DNA of 64,000 nucleotides from Dehalococcoidia bacterium (GTDB lineage Bacteria > Chloroflexota > Dehalococcoidia > UBA2979), in assembly GCA_963667465.2 (NCBI GenBank), contig CAXXDN010000001.1:864001-928000 (forward strand). Reading direction: 5' to 3'. The notes under the pieces were generated by a model. That model saw only the letters and a list, made by a program, of their open reading frames with translations. It was not told the DNA's origin and searched no databases. A program made the translations under genes and the position numbers. Of this stretch, positions 1-4,702 are shown one piece after another; position 1 is the stretch's first letter, and every line of letters begins with the position of its first letter.

Positions 1-104
1 ACGCCCTCGGGCAGCCGCCTGGCGGCGAGCCGTTCGCCGGCCTCGTTCATGAGCTGGACATCGTGGTGGTCTTCGGACCAGTCGTCACCGACGTAGAGGG
101 TCAT
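1..104 (-). CDS. IS110-family transposase/recombinase, N-terminus only (runs off the window)
   Basis: Not in the ORF track. The reverse strand from ATG at 104 reads MTLYVGDDWSEDHHDVQLMNEAGERLAARRLPEG, matching the IS110 DEDD/RuvC-like N-terminal motif (GxDWxxxxHDV). AGGAAAG lies upstream as an RBS. Confidence 0.85.
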   Translation of the reverse strand, partial: MTLYVGDDWSEDHHDVQLMNEAGERLAARRLPEG

Positions 105-139
105 CGTGCCTCGCTTTCCTGCGCTTCGTGCTGCTGTTT

Positions 140-340
140 GCGACCTGCCGGGCTGGTCCTGCGACGGCCTAATGGACCAGTGCTCTCGGGCACGACACCC
201 CAGGAGTGCTGTGGACCACCCGGACGCACCAGCCGGGGCACGGTCTCTCCCTGGAGATCGCAGTGTCTCGGGGAGGGGCAGTGCTCACCGGCCGGCCGGT
301 CCAAGACCAGTCTCCCAGATCGCTCCAGGGTCCGGTCGAA
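140..340 (-). ncRNA. Putative IS110 bridge RNA (target-binding and donor-binding loops)
   Basis: Two internal-loop modules on the minus strand: CCCCTCCCC-[GAGACACTGCGATCTC]-CAGGGAGAG and GGGGTGTC-[GTGCCCGAGAGCAC]-TGGTCCATTAGG. CCATTAGG is the reverse complement of the element end CCTAATGG. Ends are approximate. Confidence 0.65.
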
Positions 341-376
341 CCCCATTAGGGGGGCGGAGGGAGAGGGGGGGGCGAG

Positions 377-1630
377 CTAGAGCGAGACGGGGAACTCCGT
401 CAGGCCCTCGCGAGGGGCGCCGACGAGGATCGCCATGTTGCCCGGCGGGTGCTCGTTCTCGTACATCAGCTGGTGGCTCTCACCGACCTCCTCGAAGGCG
501 AAGACGCGCGAGAGCGCGGGGTCGATGCGGCCCTGCACGACGTAGTCGTTGAACTCGGCGCACTCCTCGACGTTGGCGAAGTGCGATCCCTGGAAGCGCT
601 TCTGGCGCATCCACAGGTAGCGCAGGTCCACGTCCGCGTTGTAGCCGGAGGTGCCGGCGCAGATGACCACCATCCCGCCGTTGTCGACGAGGAAGATCGA
701 GGTCGGGATCGTCGCCTCGCCCGGGTGGTCGAAGACGATCGTCGGGTTACGCCGCTCGCCGAGGGCGTCCCAGAAGGCGCGCCCGAACTGGCGCGCTCCG
801 CCGGCCCACTCGCCGAACGCCGCGGCGTCGTCGATGTCCGGGAGGCGGCCCCAGTGGTCGAAGTCGCGGCGGTTGATCACGCCCTTCGCGCCCAGCTGGT
901 GGCAAAACTCGTACTTGGACTCGTCGGAGACGACGGCGATCGGGATGCCGCCGAACTCGCGCACGATCTGGATGGCCATGCAGCCGAGGCCGCCCGCGCC
1001 GCCCCAGACCAGCACCGGGTCGCCCTCGTTGACGACGTTGGGCGGCCAGCCGCGCAGCATCCGCCAGGCGGTCGCGCCGACGAGCATGTAGGCGGCGGCG
1101 GCCTCCCAGCTGAGGTGCGGCGGCTTGGGGTAGCACTGGTAGCGGTCGACGAGGCAGTACTGGGCGAAGGAGCCCCAGTTCTCCTCGTAGCCCCAGACCT
1201 TGTTGGTGTTCGACATCATCGGGTCGCGGCCGGCGGCGATGTCGGCGGCGTCCTCGTCCCACATCCCGCAGGAGAGCACGACCTCGTCACCGACCTTGAC
1301 GTTCGTGACCTCGTCGCCGACGGCCCAGACGATGCCCGAGGCATCGGAACCGCCGATGTGGAAGTCCTCCTCGGCGCCCTGGCGGCGGCGCGCGTCGATC
1401 ACGTTGACGGGGGTGCCGAGGGCGGCCCAGACGTTGTTGTAGTTGGTGCCCGCCGCCATCACGTAGACCAGCACCTGGCGCGGGCCCACCGCGGGCACGT
1501 CGATCTGCTCGATCGCGAAGGCGTCGCGCGGCTGGCCGAAGCGCGATTCGCGGATCAGGCTGGCGTGCATCTTTTGCGGGACTTCGCCGACGGGCGGCGC
1601 CTCGCCGACGTTCGTGATCTCGATCGCCAT
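377..1630 (-). CDS. ccrA: Crotonyl-CoA carboxylase/reductase
   Basis: Motifs [65 protein letters not shown]. Start set at MAIEIT, with AGGAG upstream. Confidence 0.9.
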
Positions 1631-1747
1631 CGTCCATGCTCCTGTTCGCGCCGTCACTGCGAGGTGTCGCGGTCCTCGCGGGCCGCGAGCCCGCGTATCC
1701 TACCGAGCAGCGCGGGTCACCGCGAGCGAACGGGGACGGAGCCGAAG

Positions 1748-2272: not shown

Positions 2273-4645
2273 CTACTCGTCGAGGGCATGCACGGCGTCG
2301 GTGACGTGCGCCGCGAGCCGTCCGATCTCGTCATCGTCCTCGATGCGCCGTCCGTTGGCGCGGCGCACGTAGAAGGCGTCGACGATCTCGTGGCCGAGGG
2401 TGTTGACCTTCGCCATGTGGATGTCGAGCCCCACCTCGTGGAGCACGCTGGTGATCGCGTAGAGCAGTCCGAGGCGGTCGGCGGCGCGGATCTCGAGGAT
2501 CGAGTAGTCGGCCGAACCCGTGTTGTCGACGGTGACGCTGGTGGGGATCGGAGCGGGTGGCTCCCCGCGGTAGGCATCGCGGGTCTCGGCGAGGCGCTGC
2601 TCGATCGGGAATTCTCCGGCGAGTGCGCTCGGCACGGCCTCGATGATCCGCTCCCAGCGGCGTTCGTCGATCTCCCGTCCGCGCGCGTCGGCGAGGTGCA
2701 TCACGTCGACGGCGACGCCGTCGTTGCGCGTGAAGGCGGTGCCGCCGAGCACGTTCACGTTGTGCACCGTGAGCGTGCCGGAGACGGCCTGCAGGATGCC
2801 GGGCTGGTCCGCCGTGACGATCGTCAGCCGATCGATGGAGCCGATCCGGTCGTGGTGCAGCATCGGCGTGAGCGGGCCCCTCCTACCGGAGCGGCTCGAG
2901 TCCAGCACGCCCCCGGCGATCAGCTCGATGTGCCGGCCGATCGCGAGCGGCTCCATCGAGAGCAGGTAGTTGACCGGCAGCTGCTCGAGGTGCCGCTCCA
3001 CGGACTGCGGGGCGACCCAGCCGCTGAGCCCCTGGATCGCCGCGCGCCGCCGCCGCGCGACGGCGGTCCGCAGCGAGACGTCGGAGAGCGCCTCGCGCAC
3101 GCGCATGTAGAGCGAGCGCATCAACTGGGCCGTCCAGGCATTCCAGATGTCGGATCCGCAGCCCCTGGCGTCGGCGACCGAGACGAGATAGAGCAGGTTG
3201 AGCGTGCGCACGTCGCCGACCTGCTCGGCGACATCGCGGATCACGCGCTCGTCGGCGATGTCGCGCCGCGTCGCTACCATCGGCAGCAGCAGGTGGTGGC
3301 GCACGGTCGCCGCGAGGAGCCCGGCGGTCTCGTCGCCGAGGCCGGCGCGATCAGCGAAGCGCTCGGCGATCACCGCGCCGACCTCGCTGTGCGAGCCCTC
3401 GTGGCCCTTGCCGATGTCGTGCAGCAGCGCCGCGACCAGCAACTCGTCGCGGTCCTCGAGCTCGGCGACCGGCTCCGGAGCGCCGGACTCCTCGTCGCCC
3501 TCGGCGAGCCGAATGGCCTCGGTCACGGTGCGCCAGCTGTGCACGTCTACGGGGTGCACGTGGAAGGGCGCGACGTGCGGCTGGTTGCGCAGCACCTCCC
3601 ACTCCGGGAGCAGGCGCTCCAGCCACCCGCTGCGCGGCAGCGGATCGAGCGGTCCGCCCGGCCCCGCCCCGCGCAGCGCCGCGAGGAGCCGATCGAGATC
3701 GCCGCGGCCGTCTTCCGCAGGCGCGCCGTCCGGGCGCCTGCCGTCCTCGGCTGCCGCGCTCCGCCGGGGGAGCCAGCCGCTCCAGCGCCGGCCGCTGGAG
3801 GAGGCGGCGGCGGCGCGCAGCGCCGCGGCGGTCGCCGCGTCTACGGCTCGCACCGTCGCGCTGACGCGGCGGCTCCAGTCCGTGCGACCGACGCCGAGGC
3901 GCTCGCTCACCTCGTCGAGCAGGTCGCGGCGCAGCCGATCGTTGGCGCGGTCGTCGAGCGAGTGCAGCGCGTTGCGCGTCGCGAGCAGCACCTCGCGGGC
4001 GTCAGCGAGCTCCGGGGCGAGTTCGGGCGGGTCGCCGCCTTCGGCGATCGCCTCGGTGGCGGCGAGCCAGAGCGTGGTTTGCAGCGAGCGCAGTCCGCCG
4101 CGGCTGGTCTTGAGGTCCGGTTCCTGCAGCTGCCAGGGCTCGCGCGCCAGCGTCGCCTCGTATGCCGCAGCGAGTTCCGCTCGCATCCACCCGCGGCCAC
4201 CGCGCACGGTCTTGCGCCAGCGCCGGCGGAAGCGTTCGAACAGCGCCTCGTCGCCGGCGACCAGGCGGGCATCGAGGAGCGAGGTGAAGGTCTGCACGTT
4301 CTCGCGAGCCGCGGCCCCGACCTGGCGCAGGGTGCGCACGGAGTGGCCGACCTGCAGGCCGCTGTCCCACAGCGGGTAGAGCATGGCCTCGCTGACCCAG
4401 CGCTCCGGCTGGCGGTCGAACAGCAGCATCAGGTCGATATCGGAGTGCCGGCACTGCTCGCGGCGTCCGCTGCTCCCGACCGCGACGATGGCGATGCCCT
4501 CGGGAGGGAGGGCAGCGGCGAGGGCGCGCAGGCTCTCGTCGAGCGCGTCGCTCAGTTCGTGGCAGAGCGCGAGGCCGGCGCTGCCGGGGGGACGCGCAAA
4601 GGCGCGCCCGGCAACTGCCGAGCGCGCCTCCAGGAATGGCTGCAT
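2273..4645 (-). CDS. glnD: [Protein-PII] uridylyl/adenylyltransferase GlnD
   Basis: Nucleotidyltransferase motif AVGSSGRRE..HSDIDL, EPDLKTSRGGLR, HD motif LLHDIGKG, and two ACT domains (DQPGIL, DRLGLLY...DAFYV). Lies downstream of the PII gene. Confidence 0.9.
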   Translation of the reverse strand: MQPFLEARSAVAGRAFARPPGSAGLALCHELSDALDESLRALAAALPPEGIAIVAVGSSGRREQCRHSDIDLMLLFDRQPERWVSEAMLYPLWDSGLQVGHSVRTLRQVGAAARENVQTFTSLLDARLVAGDEALFERFRRRWRKTVRGGRGWMRAELAAAYEATLAREPWQLQEPDLKTSRGGLRSLQTTLWLAATEAIAEGGDPPELAPELADAREVLLATRNALHSLDDRANDRLRRDLLDEVSERLGVGRTDWSRRVSATVRAVDAATAAALRAAAASSSGRRWSGWLPRRSAAAEDGRRPDGAPAEDGRGDLDRLLAALRGAGPGGPLDPLPRSGWLERLLPEWEVLRNQPHVAPFHVHPVDVHSWRTVTEAIRLAEGDEESGAPEPVAELEDRDELLVAALLHDIGKGHEGSHSEVGAVIAERFADRAGLGDETAGLLAATVRHHLLLPMVATRRDIADERVIRDVAEQVGDVRTLNLLYLVSVADARGCGSDIWNAWTAQLMRSLYMRVREALSDVSLRTAVARRRRAAIQGLSGWVAPQSVERHLEQLPVNYLLSMEPLAIGRHIELIAGGVLDSSRSGRRGPLTPMLHHDRIGSIDRLTIVTADQPGILQAVSGTLTVHNVNVLGGTAFTRNDGVAVDVMHLADARGREIDERRWERIIEAVPSALAGEFPIEQRLAETRDAYRGEPPAPIPTSVTVDNTGSADYSILEIRAADRLGLLYAITSVLHEVGLDIHMAKVNTLGHEIVDAFYVRRANGRRIEDDDEIGRLAAHVTDAVHALDE

Positions 4646-4702
4646 GGCCGGAACCTGAACCATTCCGATGCGTCTCCCCGTTTGCGCGGGGGAGGTAGCT
4701 CC

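What the first reader, a model, noticed from the sequence alone, without database searches (positions are those of the whole stretch)
105..376. IS110 leader with legible bridge-RNA guides that predict both donor and target
Seen: on the transposase strand the leader has two loops, each with guide-like segments either side of a small hairpin. Loop 2 ends in CCATTAGG, the exact reverse complement of the element's own end CCTAATGG (plus strand 168-175 versus 343-350), and starts with GGGGTGTC. Loop 1 has CCCCTCCCC and CAGGGAGAG. The flank outside the element is a C-rich tract ending ...CCGCCCCC-CT. Established: IS110 recombinases such as IS621 use a bispecific bridge RNA with target and donor loops around a 2-nt core. 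Inference: donor = GGGGTGT-CT-AATGG and target = C-rich-CT-CTCCC. The left target guide matches the flank only imperfectly.
Basis: partly seen in the sequence, partly recalled or inferred. Interest (0 to 1): 0.7.

Follow-up and report, generated by a model that had tools for sequence, protein, structure and literature searches.

The report
IS110 insertion sequence with bridge RNA
The stretch is the leader of an ordinary but very clearly readable IS110-type jumping gene, and it encodes a guide ("bridge") RNA whose loops spell out both the element's own ends and the repeat sequence it inserts into.

Summary
Confirmed. Window 105-349 (minus strand) is the 245-nt left end of a 1,492-bp IS110-group element that runs off the window's left edge. 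The genome holds 10 full copies. The recombinase has both IS110 Pfam domains and passes NCBIfam "IS110 family RNA-guided transposase". The leader has the IS621-type layout: a 5' hairpin, then a target loop (CCCCUCC-C / GGGAGAG), then a donor loop (GGGGUGUC / CCAUUAG). In 37 distinct homologous leaders the stems covary: 15 pairs show double changes against 8.8 in shuffles (0/500). The target-loop guides covary with the flanks: left 116/168 and right 109/120 matches against 61.8 and 53.0 when permuted (0/10,000). Three insertions have orthologous empty sites in a same-genus genome, each with a single CT. The target is a REP-like hairpin repeat, with 42 free sites in the genome. Not shown: the RNA itself, a circle junction, or activity. 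The fold energy alone is not significant. Verdict: a new, well-resolved member of a known kind; low to moderate interest.

The parts
1..349 (-). The part of the IS110-group element that lies in the window. The whole element is G000:C1:862858-864349, 1,492 bp counting a CT at each junction. The right end lies outside the window.
   Evidence: boundaries from 10 full copies and their flanks; three orthologous empty sites.
1..104 (-). First 34 codons of the 407-aa recombinase (ATG at 104..102).
   Evidence: PF01548 at 6.9e-38, PF02371 at 7.1e-11, NF033542 at 185.8 bits against a cut-off of 140.
105..349 (-). Left non-coding end (245 nt), which encodes the proposed bridge RNA. The true RNA 5' and 3' ends are unknown.
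343..349 (-). Left element end: core CT plus right-donor AATGG (CTAATGG). It pairs with the right donor guide.
350..356 (-). Left target half-site of this copy (CGCCCCC), outside the element.
   Evidence: 5/7 Watson-Crick plus 1 wobble to the left target guide.
305..337 (-). 5' stem-loop preceding the target loop.
   Evidence: helix 1: 96.2% of cells paired.
281..302 (-). 5' strand of the outer stem of the target-binding loop.
   Evidence: helix 4: 14 pairs, 5 with double changes, 98.3% paired.
270..278 (-). Left target guide: CCCCUCC, then C pairing the first core base, then an unpaired C.
254..269 (-). Inner hairpin of the target-binding loop (GAGA...UCUC).
   Evidence: helix 5: 3 of 4 pairs with double changes, 99.3% paired.
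245..251 (-). Right target guide GGGAGAG. It pairs the top strand CT+CTCCC.
243..244 (-). AC next to the right target guide. It is complementary to the donor's GT before the core (handshake position).
   Evidence: AC with GT in 52, AU with GT in 8, AU with AT in 1 of 61 combinations.
222..241 (-). 3' strand of the outer stem of the target-binding loop.
   Evidence: helix 4.
194..204 (-). Left donor guide: GGGGUGU plus C pairing the first core base. Identity with the right end extends to 11 nt (CCUGGGGUGUC).
   Evidence: D19.
180..193 (-). Inner hairpin of the donor-binding loop (GUGC...GCAC). It is invariant in all 37 leaders.
   Evidence: helix 9.
169..175 (-). Right donor guide CCAUUAG. It pairs the top strand CT+AATGG.
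168..168 (-). G after the right donor guide. It is complementary to the last base of the left target (handshake position).
   Evidence: G with C in 58, G with T in 2, C with G in 3 of 63 combinations.
213..221 (-). 5' strand of the outer stem of the donor-binding loop.
   Evidence: helices 6-7: 88-95% paired, 4 of 6 pairs with double changes.
150..159 (-). 3' strand of the outer stem of the donor-binding loop.
   Evidence: helices 6-7.

Best explanation
This is the left end of an intact IS110-group insertion sequence whose leader encodes a bridge RNA of the IS621 type.

Proposed mechanism:
- The element excises as a circle. The right end ...GGGGTGT and the left end AATGG... then meet across one CT.
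- A -35 box in the right end (TTGACG) then lies 18 nt before the junction hexamer TCT|AAT and drives transcription of the leader.
- The RNA folds into a 5' hairpin, a target loop and a donor loop.
- In the donor loop, GGGGUGUC pairs the bottom strand of the right end plus the first core base. CCAUUAG pairs the top strand CT+AATGG.
- In the target loop, CCCCUCC-C pairs the bottom strand of CCCCNCC plus the first core base. GGGAGAG pairs the top strand CT+CTCCC.
- The DEDD/Ser recombinase exchanges strands at CT. The element lands in the 5' arm of a REP-like hairpin repeat, with a CT at each junction.

Shown here: the complementarities, the stem covariation, the guide-flank covariation, the exact boundaries, the empty sites, the copy number and the protein family.

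Inferred from IS621 (passages of PMC11208160 and PMC11208158): transcription, RNA-protein binding, the circle, the promoter and the chemistry.
For: - **Right end and flank.** They are exactly as predicted from the leader.
- **Copies.** There are 10 full copies at 99.46-100% identity plus one 739-nt piece at a contig end. All 10 are flanked ...CC-CT-[IS]-CT-..., with CTCCC on the right in 9 of 10.
- **Empty sites.** A same-genus genome has orthologous empty sites for 3 of the 4 copies tested (the window copy, and copies 3, 7 and 8). Each carries a single CT.
- **Protein.** PF01548 and PF02371. NF033542 'IS110 family RNA-guided transposase' at 185.8 bits against a cut-off of 140. A profile of 15 homologues hits the IS621 transposase (2e-11) and the ISCro4 transposase (6.3e-12). 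D8, E60, D100, D103 and S317 are invariant.
- **Architecture.** The left end is 245 nt and the right end is 23 nt after the stop. No terminal inverted repeat was found.
- **Stems in 37 distinct leaders.** 97.6% of cells are paired, against 25-42% when the partner is slid. 15 pairs show double changes against 8.8 +/- 1.6 in shuffles (0/500).
- **Guides against flanks, 24 target-loop classes.** The left side matches 116/168 against a permuted mean of 61.8 (maximum 84). The right side matches 109/120 against 53.0 (maximum 84). Both give 0/10,000. The result holds for the 15 classes with distinct right guides: 66/75 against 30.1 and 69/105 against 33.6.
- **Donor loop against ends.** The 8-nt left guide is perfect in 10 of 13 distinct combinations and the 7-nt right guide in 11 of 13. 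The G-to-A variant in the guide goes with an A in the right end in 3 combinations and fails in 1.
- **Handshake positions** behave as in IS621.
- **Free targets.** The genome has 42 sites CCCCNCC-CT-CTCCC against 1.4 expected from base composition.
- **Promoter.** TTGACN lies 17-19 nt before the junction hexamer in 28 of 30 distinct right-end tails. This includes tails where it sits well downstream of the stop codon. No sigma-70-like site lies inside the integrated element.
Against: - No RNA, circle junction or activity was observed.
- Single-sequence folding is not better than shuffles (z = -0.51; 56 of 200 shuffles fold as well).
- The unconstrained minimum-energy fold closes the loops, partly because the target is palindromic.
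- No Rfam family matched. I do not know whether Rfam holds a bridge-RNA model.
- The left target guide is imperfect. Its U at position 5 faces a G in 40 of 42 free sites and in 5 of 10 occupied sites. The window copy matches only 5/7 plus a wobble.
- The second core base is unpaired in both left guides: CG in 37/37 donor guides; CT 23, CA 9, CC 5 in target guides. IS621 is reported to pair both.
- Some classes fit poorly. L044/L045 match the left side 3/9. L079 matches 6/9 and 5/9. One copy here and loci L001 and L002 have AACCC instead of CTCCC on the right.
- The junction hexamer TCTAAT has C at the normally conserved second position.
- The structure tested was derived from the same alignment.
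Confidence: 0.93

Rival explanations
1. The leader is only a structured 5' UTR or a set of protein-binding sub-terminal repeats. The recombinase protein recognises the ends and target by itself, and the guide-like matches are repeats of the ends.
For: The donor-loop segments are simply a direct and an inverted repeat of the element's ends. They hardly vary among homologues, so they offer little covariation. Fold energy is not significant. No RNA was seen.
Against: Repeats of the element's own ends cannot explain why loop 1 tracks the flanking host DNA across 24 classes (0/10,000). Examples are CACGAAG with CT-TCGTG, GTTGTAG with CT-ACAAC and GGCCTAG with CT-AGGCC. The stems around the variable segments also keep pairing through double changes.
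Confidence: 0.03
2. The complementarities arise by chance in a G+C-rich leader.
For: C-rich and G-rich runs are common in a genome of 71% G+C. The left target guide and its sites are low in complexity.
Against: The A/T-containing 8-mer is 3 against 0.13 expected. There is an 11-nt exact repeat of the right end. A prediction made before the right end was seen came true. The permutation tests gave 0/10,000.
Confidence: 0.01
3. It is an IS1111-group (seekRNA-like) element, with the guide RNA in the right end.
For: It has the same protein family and the same general logic.
Against: The right end has only 23 nt after the stop codon, while the left end has 245 nt and carries both loops. No long sub-terminal inverted repeats were found.
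Confidence: 0.01

Closest known systems
IS621 of Escherichia coli and its bridge RNA (Durrant et al. 2024, PMC11208160; Hiraizumi et al. 2024, PMC11208158; passages read)
   Same: - DEDD RuvC-like domain plus a Tnp domain with serine.
- RNA encoded in a long left end.
- Target loop first, donor loop second.
[quoted passage not shown]
- CT core.
- REP-type targets.
- Handshake positions next to the right guides.
- A -35 box in the right end facing the junction.
   Different: - The proteins are too far apart for a single-sequence search (0 hits). A profile gives 2e-11.
- 407 aa here against a 328-residue chain in the solved structure.
- The right target guide is 7 nt here. The paper describes a four-base guide for wild-type IS621.
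- Both left guides pair only the first core base here.
- The donor and target sequences are different.
- The host is G+C-rich. The closest loci are titled Dehalococcoidia MAGs.
ISCro4 transposase (PDB 9t56)
   Same: It is the best profile match among solved structures (6.3e-12), covering both domains.
   Different: The similarity is distant. I read nothing about its RNA or its target.
ISPpu9 / ISPpu10 of Pseudomonas putida (PMC12288879 and bioRxiv 10.64898/2026.03.19.712850; search listing and abstract starts only)
   Same: IS110-family elements present in several copies and inserted into repeated intergenic (REP) sequences.
   Different: Different host and different sequences. I did not test whether a hairpin-shape requirement applies here. 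I only see that the insertion point lies in the 5' arm of the repeat's hairpin.
IS1111 group (for example ISPa11, IS4321/IS5075; named in passages of PMC11208160)
   Same: Same recombinase family and RNA-guided logic.
   Different: In those elements the RNA is in a long right end and the sub-terminal inverted repeats are long. Here the right end is 23 nt.

Membership tests
IS110 family (recombinase) | [quoted passage not shown] | tested here: met
   6.9e-38, residues 5-161. D8, E60, D100 and D103 are invariant in 15 homologues and lie in the blocks aligned to the ISCro4 transposase (alignment shown); IS621 was also hit.
IS110 family (recombinase) | C-terminal Tnp domain (PF02371) with a conserved serine | tested here: met
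   7.1e-11, residues 273-356. S317-G318 are invariant and align to the ...SG motif of ISCro4. That this serine is the nucleophile is inferred from IS621 S241.
IS110 family (recombinase) | Passes NCBIfam NF033542 'IS110 family RNA-guided transposase' | tested here: met
   185.8 bits against a cut-off of 140.
IS110 family (element) | No terminal inverted repeats, and scarless insertion around a short core with no longer duplication | tested here: met
   no inverted pair joins the two ends; three empty sites carry one CT, and the occupied sites carry a CT at each junction and nothing else.
IS110 group (as opposed to IS1111 group) | Long left end carrying the RNA, and a short right end | tested here: met
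   245 nt against 23 nt.
Bridge RNA | Two internal loops, each split by a hairpin and closed by conserved stems | tested here: met
   nine helices, 97.6% of cells paired, 15 pairs with double changes (0/500 shuffles reach this). The structure was derived from the same alignment.
Bridge RNA | Loop 1 guides match the left (bottom strand) and right (top strand) halves of the target, core included | tested here: met
   The second core base is not paired by the left guide in 14 of 37 leaders, this one included.
Bridge RNA | Loop 2 guides match the right end and the left end of the element | tested here: met
   8/8 and 7/7 in this element. The second core base is never paired by the left donor guide.
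Bridge RNA | Handshake bases complementary to the non-cognate DNA and not to the cognate DNA | tested here: met
   read against the passages. One base is met in the donor loop and two in the target loop.
Bridge RNA | Transcribed from a promoter rebuilt at the circle junction | tested here: inconclusive
   the -35 box is conserved in 28/30 right-end tails at the right distance. The junction hexamer has C at its second position. No transcript data exist.
Bridge RNA | The RNA exists, binds the recombinase and directs recombination | not testable with these tools
   Only assembled contigs of public runs were on hand.
IS110 family (element) | Circular double-stranded or single-stranded intermediate | not testable with these tools
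   No raw reads were available. Contigs cannot show rare junctions.

The most novel reading that the evidence does not exclude
In this lineage both left guides read only the first core base. This element's left target guide also carries a U that mismatches the dominant allele of its REP-like target: G in 40 of 42 free sites. Occupied sites are enriched for the rare alleles, 5 non-G of 10 against 2 of 42 (Fisher p = 0.0017). With the same strict pattern on both sides it is 3 of 8 against 2 of 42 (p = 0.024). The mismatch could throttle transposition or steer it to minor repeat alleles. The CT-AACCC sites (one here, and loci L001 and L002) would then be donor-like 'half-match' insertions of the kind reported for IS621 (abstract of bioRxiv 10.64898/2026.08.31.748434).
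Probability: 0.2. Interest if true: 0.45.

Novelty: new member of a known kind. Interest (0 to 1): 0.3.

Why it matters
It adds no new principle. Bridge RNAs of IS110 elements have been known since 2024, and NCBI's own family model already names this protein an RNA-guided transposase.

Its value is as a clean natural example:
- All four guides, the core and the handshake bases are legible.
- The boundaries are fixed to the base by three orthologous empty sites.
- The close relatives keep one donor loop while carrying 25 different target loops. That makes a natural series of retargeted bridge RNAs from G+C-rich, uncultured bacteria.
- It shows that the ends and target of such an element can be predicted from the leader alone.

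Tried and rejected
- **Rfam**. Four weak hits, all far under their gathering scores, to unrelated eukaryotic or plasmid RNAs. Rejected.
- **Single-sequence folding**. The minimum-energy fold pairs the guides with each other and the energy is not significant. I used guide-constrained and alignment-based folding instead.
- **RNAalifold without constraints**. It pairs the left element end with the right donor guide. That is the guide-donor complementarity seen within one strand, so I did not take it as RNA structure.
- **PDB search with the single protein**. No hit. A profile was needed.
- **Public runs**.
  - Only Logan contigs were available.
  - They show IS-internal contigs at about 6-8 times the depth of the flank, with contig breaks at the element ends.
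  - No contig joins the right end to the left end, and none spans an empty site at this locus.
  - The one metatranscriptome laid (X19) has no contig on the leader.
  - None of this counts for or against expression or circles.
  - Runs labelled sponge metagenome hold the element.
- **Empty site for the window copy itself**. The intergenic region next to the dehydrogenase gene carries different repeats in 9 same-genus genomes, so no clean empty site was found. Three other copies gave empty sites.
- **Orthologue of the odd CT-AACCC copy**. Its right flank is another mobile element (DUF772 plus DDE_Tnp_1 transposase). It has one copy here and 5 in genome G009, so no empty site could be defined.
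- **Extended pairing beyond the handshake base** (inverted pair I16). It reaches 78% over 18 nt with this copy's flank only. I judged it G+C-rich coincidence.
- **Papers.** Supplements are closed. The bridge-RNA tables of Durrant et al. may already list this element or close relatives, and I could not check. A search for IS110 + sponge + Chloroflexi found one unrelated paper.

Full report
**Where it is.** The window is G000:C1:864001-928000. Window 1-349, read on the minus strand, is the left part of a mobile element that continues beyond the window's left edge. The ATG is at 104..102 and the open frame leaves the window. In the genome the frame is 407 aa. The leader is 245 nt, and only 23 nt follow the stop codon. 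The element is 1,492 bp counting a CT at each junction (C1:862858-864349).

**The observation.**
- CCCCTCCCC at 278..270.
- CAGGGAGAG at 253..245.
- GGGGTGTC at 201..194.
- CCATTAGG at 175..168, the reverse complement of the element end plus one flank base (350..343).

CCTAATGG occurs 3 times in the window against 0.13 expected. The third occurrence is in unrelated sequence. The 11-mer CCTGGGGTGTC in the leader is an exact direct repeat of the right end.

**The prediction.** On the transposase strand the adjacent DNA reads ...CCTGGGGTGTCT then CTCCCCTCG.

**Copies and boundaries.** BLAST of the element against the genome gives 10 full copies (99.46-100% identical) and one 739-nt piece at the end of contig 2.
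- All 10 full copies are flanked ...CC-CT-[element]-CT-....
- The right flank is CTCCC in 9 copies and AACCC in 1.
- For three copies, a same-genus genome (G001) has the orthologous site empty...CCCCTCACCCCC(G/T/A)CC-CT-CTCCCCC..., with one CT.
- So insertion is exact, the core is CT, and nothing else is duplicated.
- The window copy's own locus has different repeats in relatives, so it gave no empty site.

**The target.** The target is a REP-like hairpin repeat with consensus CCCCTCACCCCCGCC-CT-CTCCCGCGAGGGGAGAGGGGGCCGGA. The insertion point lies in the 5' arm of its stem. The genome has 42 free sites CCCCNCC-CT-CTCCC against 1.4 expected from base composition. It has about 150 hairpin cores of the repeat.

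**The protein.**
- Pfam finds DEDD_Tnp_IS110 (6.9e-38) and Transposase_20 (7.1e-11).
- NCBIfam NF033542 'IS110 family RNA-guided transposase' scores 185.8 bits against a cut-off of 140.
- The single sequence finds no solved structure.
- A profile of 15 homologues finds the ISCro4 (6.3e-12) and IS621 (2e-11) transposases.
- D8, E60, D100, D103 and S317 are invariant and lie in the blocks aligned to the ISCro4 transposase. By position they correspond to the catalytic residues named for IS621.

**Homologues.** A scan of one genome per species found 243 related stretches, of which 80 were kept. They share 67-92% protein identity. Most are titled Dehalococcoidia MAGs, and some Actinomycetota.
- Three loci lack a left end in the fetched stretch and were dropped (L003, L009, L066).
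- In two loci (L024, L059) no right end was found, so they were dropped for the right flank only.
- The rest collapse to 36 distinct leaders. With the window's, 37 were aligned.

**Structure.** With the four guide segments and the left element end held unpaired, the alignment folds into four parts:
- a 5' hairpin;
- a long stem closing loop 1, with an inner hairpin;
- a stem closing loop 2, with an inner hairpin;
- a long-range closing helix.

Counted on the alignment, 97.6% of 1,515 cells pair, against 25-42% with the partner slid. Fifteen of 41 pairs show double changes against 8.8 +/- 1.6 in shuffles (0/500). The inner hairpin of loop 1 changes AU to CG or GC in 11 sequences and stays paired. 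The inner hairpin of loop 2 is invariant. Two caveats apply. The structure came from the same alignment. The single-sequence energy is not significant (z = -0.51).

**Guides.** Durrant et al. (passages) state two rules. [quoted passage not shown] The 3' side pairs the top strand over 4-7 nt, core included. The table shows how this element fits.

| Guide | RNA | DNA | Match |
|---|---|---|---|
| Left donor guide | GGGGUGUC | right end GGGGTGT plus C | equal |
| Right donor guide | CCAUUAG | CT+AATGG | complementary |
| Right target guide | GGGAGAG | CT+CTCCC | complementary |
| Left target guide | CCCCUCC-C | CCCCNCC plus C | equal except N |

**Covariation of guides with flanks.** Among the relatives loop 2 hardly changes, but loop 1 comes in 25 versions, and the flanks follow them. 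Examples are CACGAAG beside CT-TCGTG, GTTGTAG beside CT-ACAAC, ACGTAG beside CT-ACGT, GGCCTAG beside CT-AGGCC, and CAACAAC-CT beside CAACAAC-CT. I took the first complete site of each of 24 classes.

| Test | Observed | Permuted mean | Permuted maximum | Permutations reaching observed |
|---|---|---|---|---|
| Left guides, 24 classes | 116/168 | 61.8 | 84 | 0/10,000 |
| Right guides, 24 classes | 109/120 | 53.0 | 84 | 0/10,000 |
| Right guides, 15 classes with distinct right guides | 66/75 | 30.1 | 56 | 0/10,000 |
| Left guides, same 15 classes | 69/105 | 33.6 | 55 | 0/10,000 |

U opposite a top-strand C (a G-U wobble with the bottom strand) is common in the left guides.

**Donor loop against ends.** The 8-nt left donor guide is perfect in 10 of 13 distinct combinations and the 7-nt right donor guide in 11 of 13. 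A GGGAUGUC variant goes with right ends GGGATGTCT or GGGATATCT in 3 combinations. One locus (L080) breaks the rule.

**Handshake bases.** Hiraizumi et al. (passages) describe bases next to the right guides that pair the other DNA after strand exchange.
- Here AC follows the right target guide and is complementary to the donor's GT: AC/GT in 52, AU/GT in 8 and AU/AT in 1 of 61 combinations.
- G follows the right donor guide and is complementary to the last target base: G/C in 58, G/T in 2 and C/G in 3 of 63 combinations.
- The three C/G cases are compensatory.

**Promoter.** The right end holds TTGACG 18 nt before TCT, which with the left end's AAT would make a -10-like hexamer across the junction. 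TTGACN at 17-19 nt is kept in 28 of 30 distinct right-end tails. This includes tails where it lies well after the stop codon, so coding does not explain it. No sigma-70-like site lies inside the integrated element. Durrant et al. report such a junction promoter for IS621 (passages). The hexamer's second base is C, so this step stays an inference.

**What does not fit.**
- The left target guide's fifth base, U, faces G in 40 of 42 free sites.
- The window copy's left half-site is CGCCCCC.
- Both left guides leave the second core base unpaired.
- L044/L045 and L079 fit their left flanks poorly.
- One copy here and loci L001 and L002 have CT-AACCC on the right. The copy here abuts another transposon.
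- Occupied sites are richer in non-G alleles than free sites: 5/10 against 2/42, p = 0.0017. With the strict pattern it is 3/8 against 2/42, p = 0.024.

**Not shown.** No RNA, circle or activity was observed. The public runs were available only as contigs. No Rfam family matched.

**Verdict.** This is an IS110-group element with an IS621-type bridge RNA, and a new member of a known kind. Interest is low to moderate.

Noticed in passing
window 351-376; G000:C1:862540-862857; genome-wide: A REP-like hairpin repeat family, CCCCTCACCCCCGCCCTCTCCCGCGAGGGGAGAGGGGGCCGGA. The genome has about 150 hairpin cores and 124 GGGRGCCGGA tails. Several copies sit in tandem just right of this element. A variant reads ...CACCCTAACCCTCTCCC... 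(9 copies).
   Followed up: partly
G000:C2:1583212-1584702 and its right flank to about 1585750: One IS110 copy has CT-AACCC instead of CT-CTCCC on its right. It abuts a gene for a DUF772 + DDE_Tnp_1 transposase. That flank is single-copy here but has 5 copies in same-genus genome G009. Related ends (...GGAGACCTTTGCG...) lie right of IS110 copies in L014, L020 and L024.
   Followed up: partly
L001:2224-2250, L002:2224-2250, L003:2221-2247: In two other genomes the right flank is also CT-AACCC although the right target guide reads CTCTCCC. The two mismatched bases equal the first two bases of the element's own left end after the core.
   Followed up: no
G000:C1:4027-7802 and G000:C2:1900775-1904564: The end of contig 2 matches the start region of contig 1 in reverse orientation (3,790 bp, 99.6%). 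The match includes the partial eleventh IS copy. This is either an assembly overlap at a repeat or a recent duplication.
   Followed up: partly
L003:1-1000 and L009:1-1000: Two homologous elements have leaders truncated upstream of the donor loop and replaced by unrelated sequence. They are probably decayed or rearranged copies.
   Followed up: no
window 377-1657 (-) and 2273-4663 (-): Neighbouring genes. One is a 426-aa zinc-type dehydrogenase (ADH_N + ADH_zinc_N) whose stop codon lies 27 nt from the element. The other is a 796-aa GlnD-like uridylyltransferase with HD and ACT domains.
   Followed up: partly
L081:258-1751 in runs X1, X3, X5: Contigs of public runs break at the element's ends. 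IS-internal contigs have about 6-8 times the depth of the flank, in line with a multi-copy element. Runs labelled sponge metagenome hold it.
   Followed up: partly
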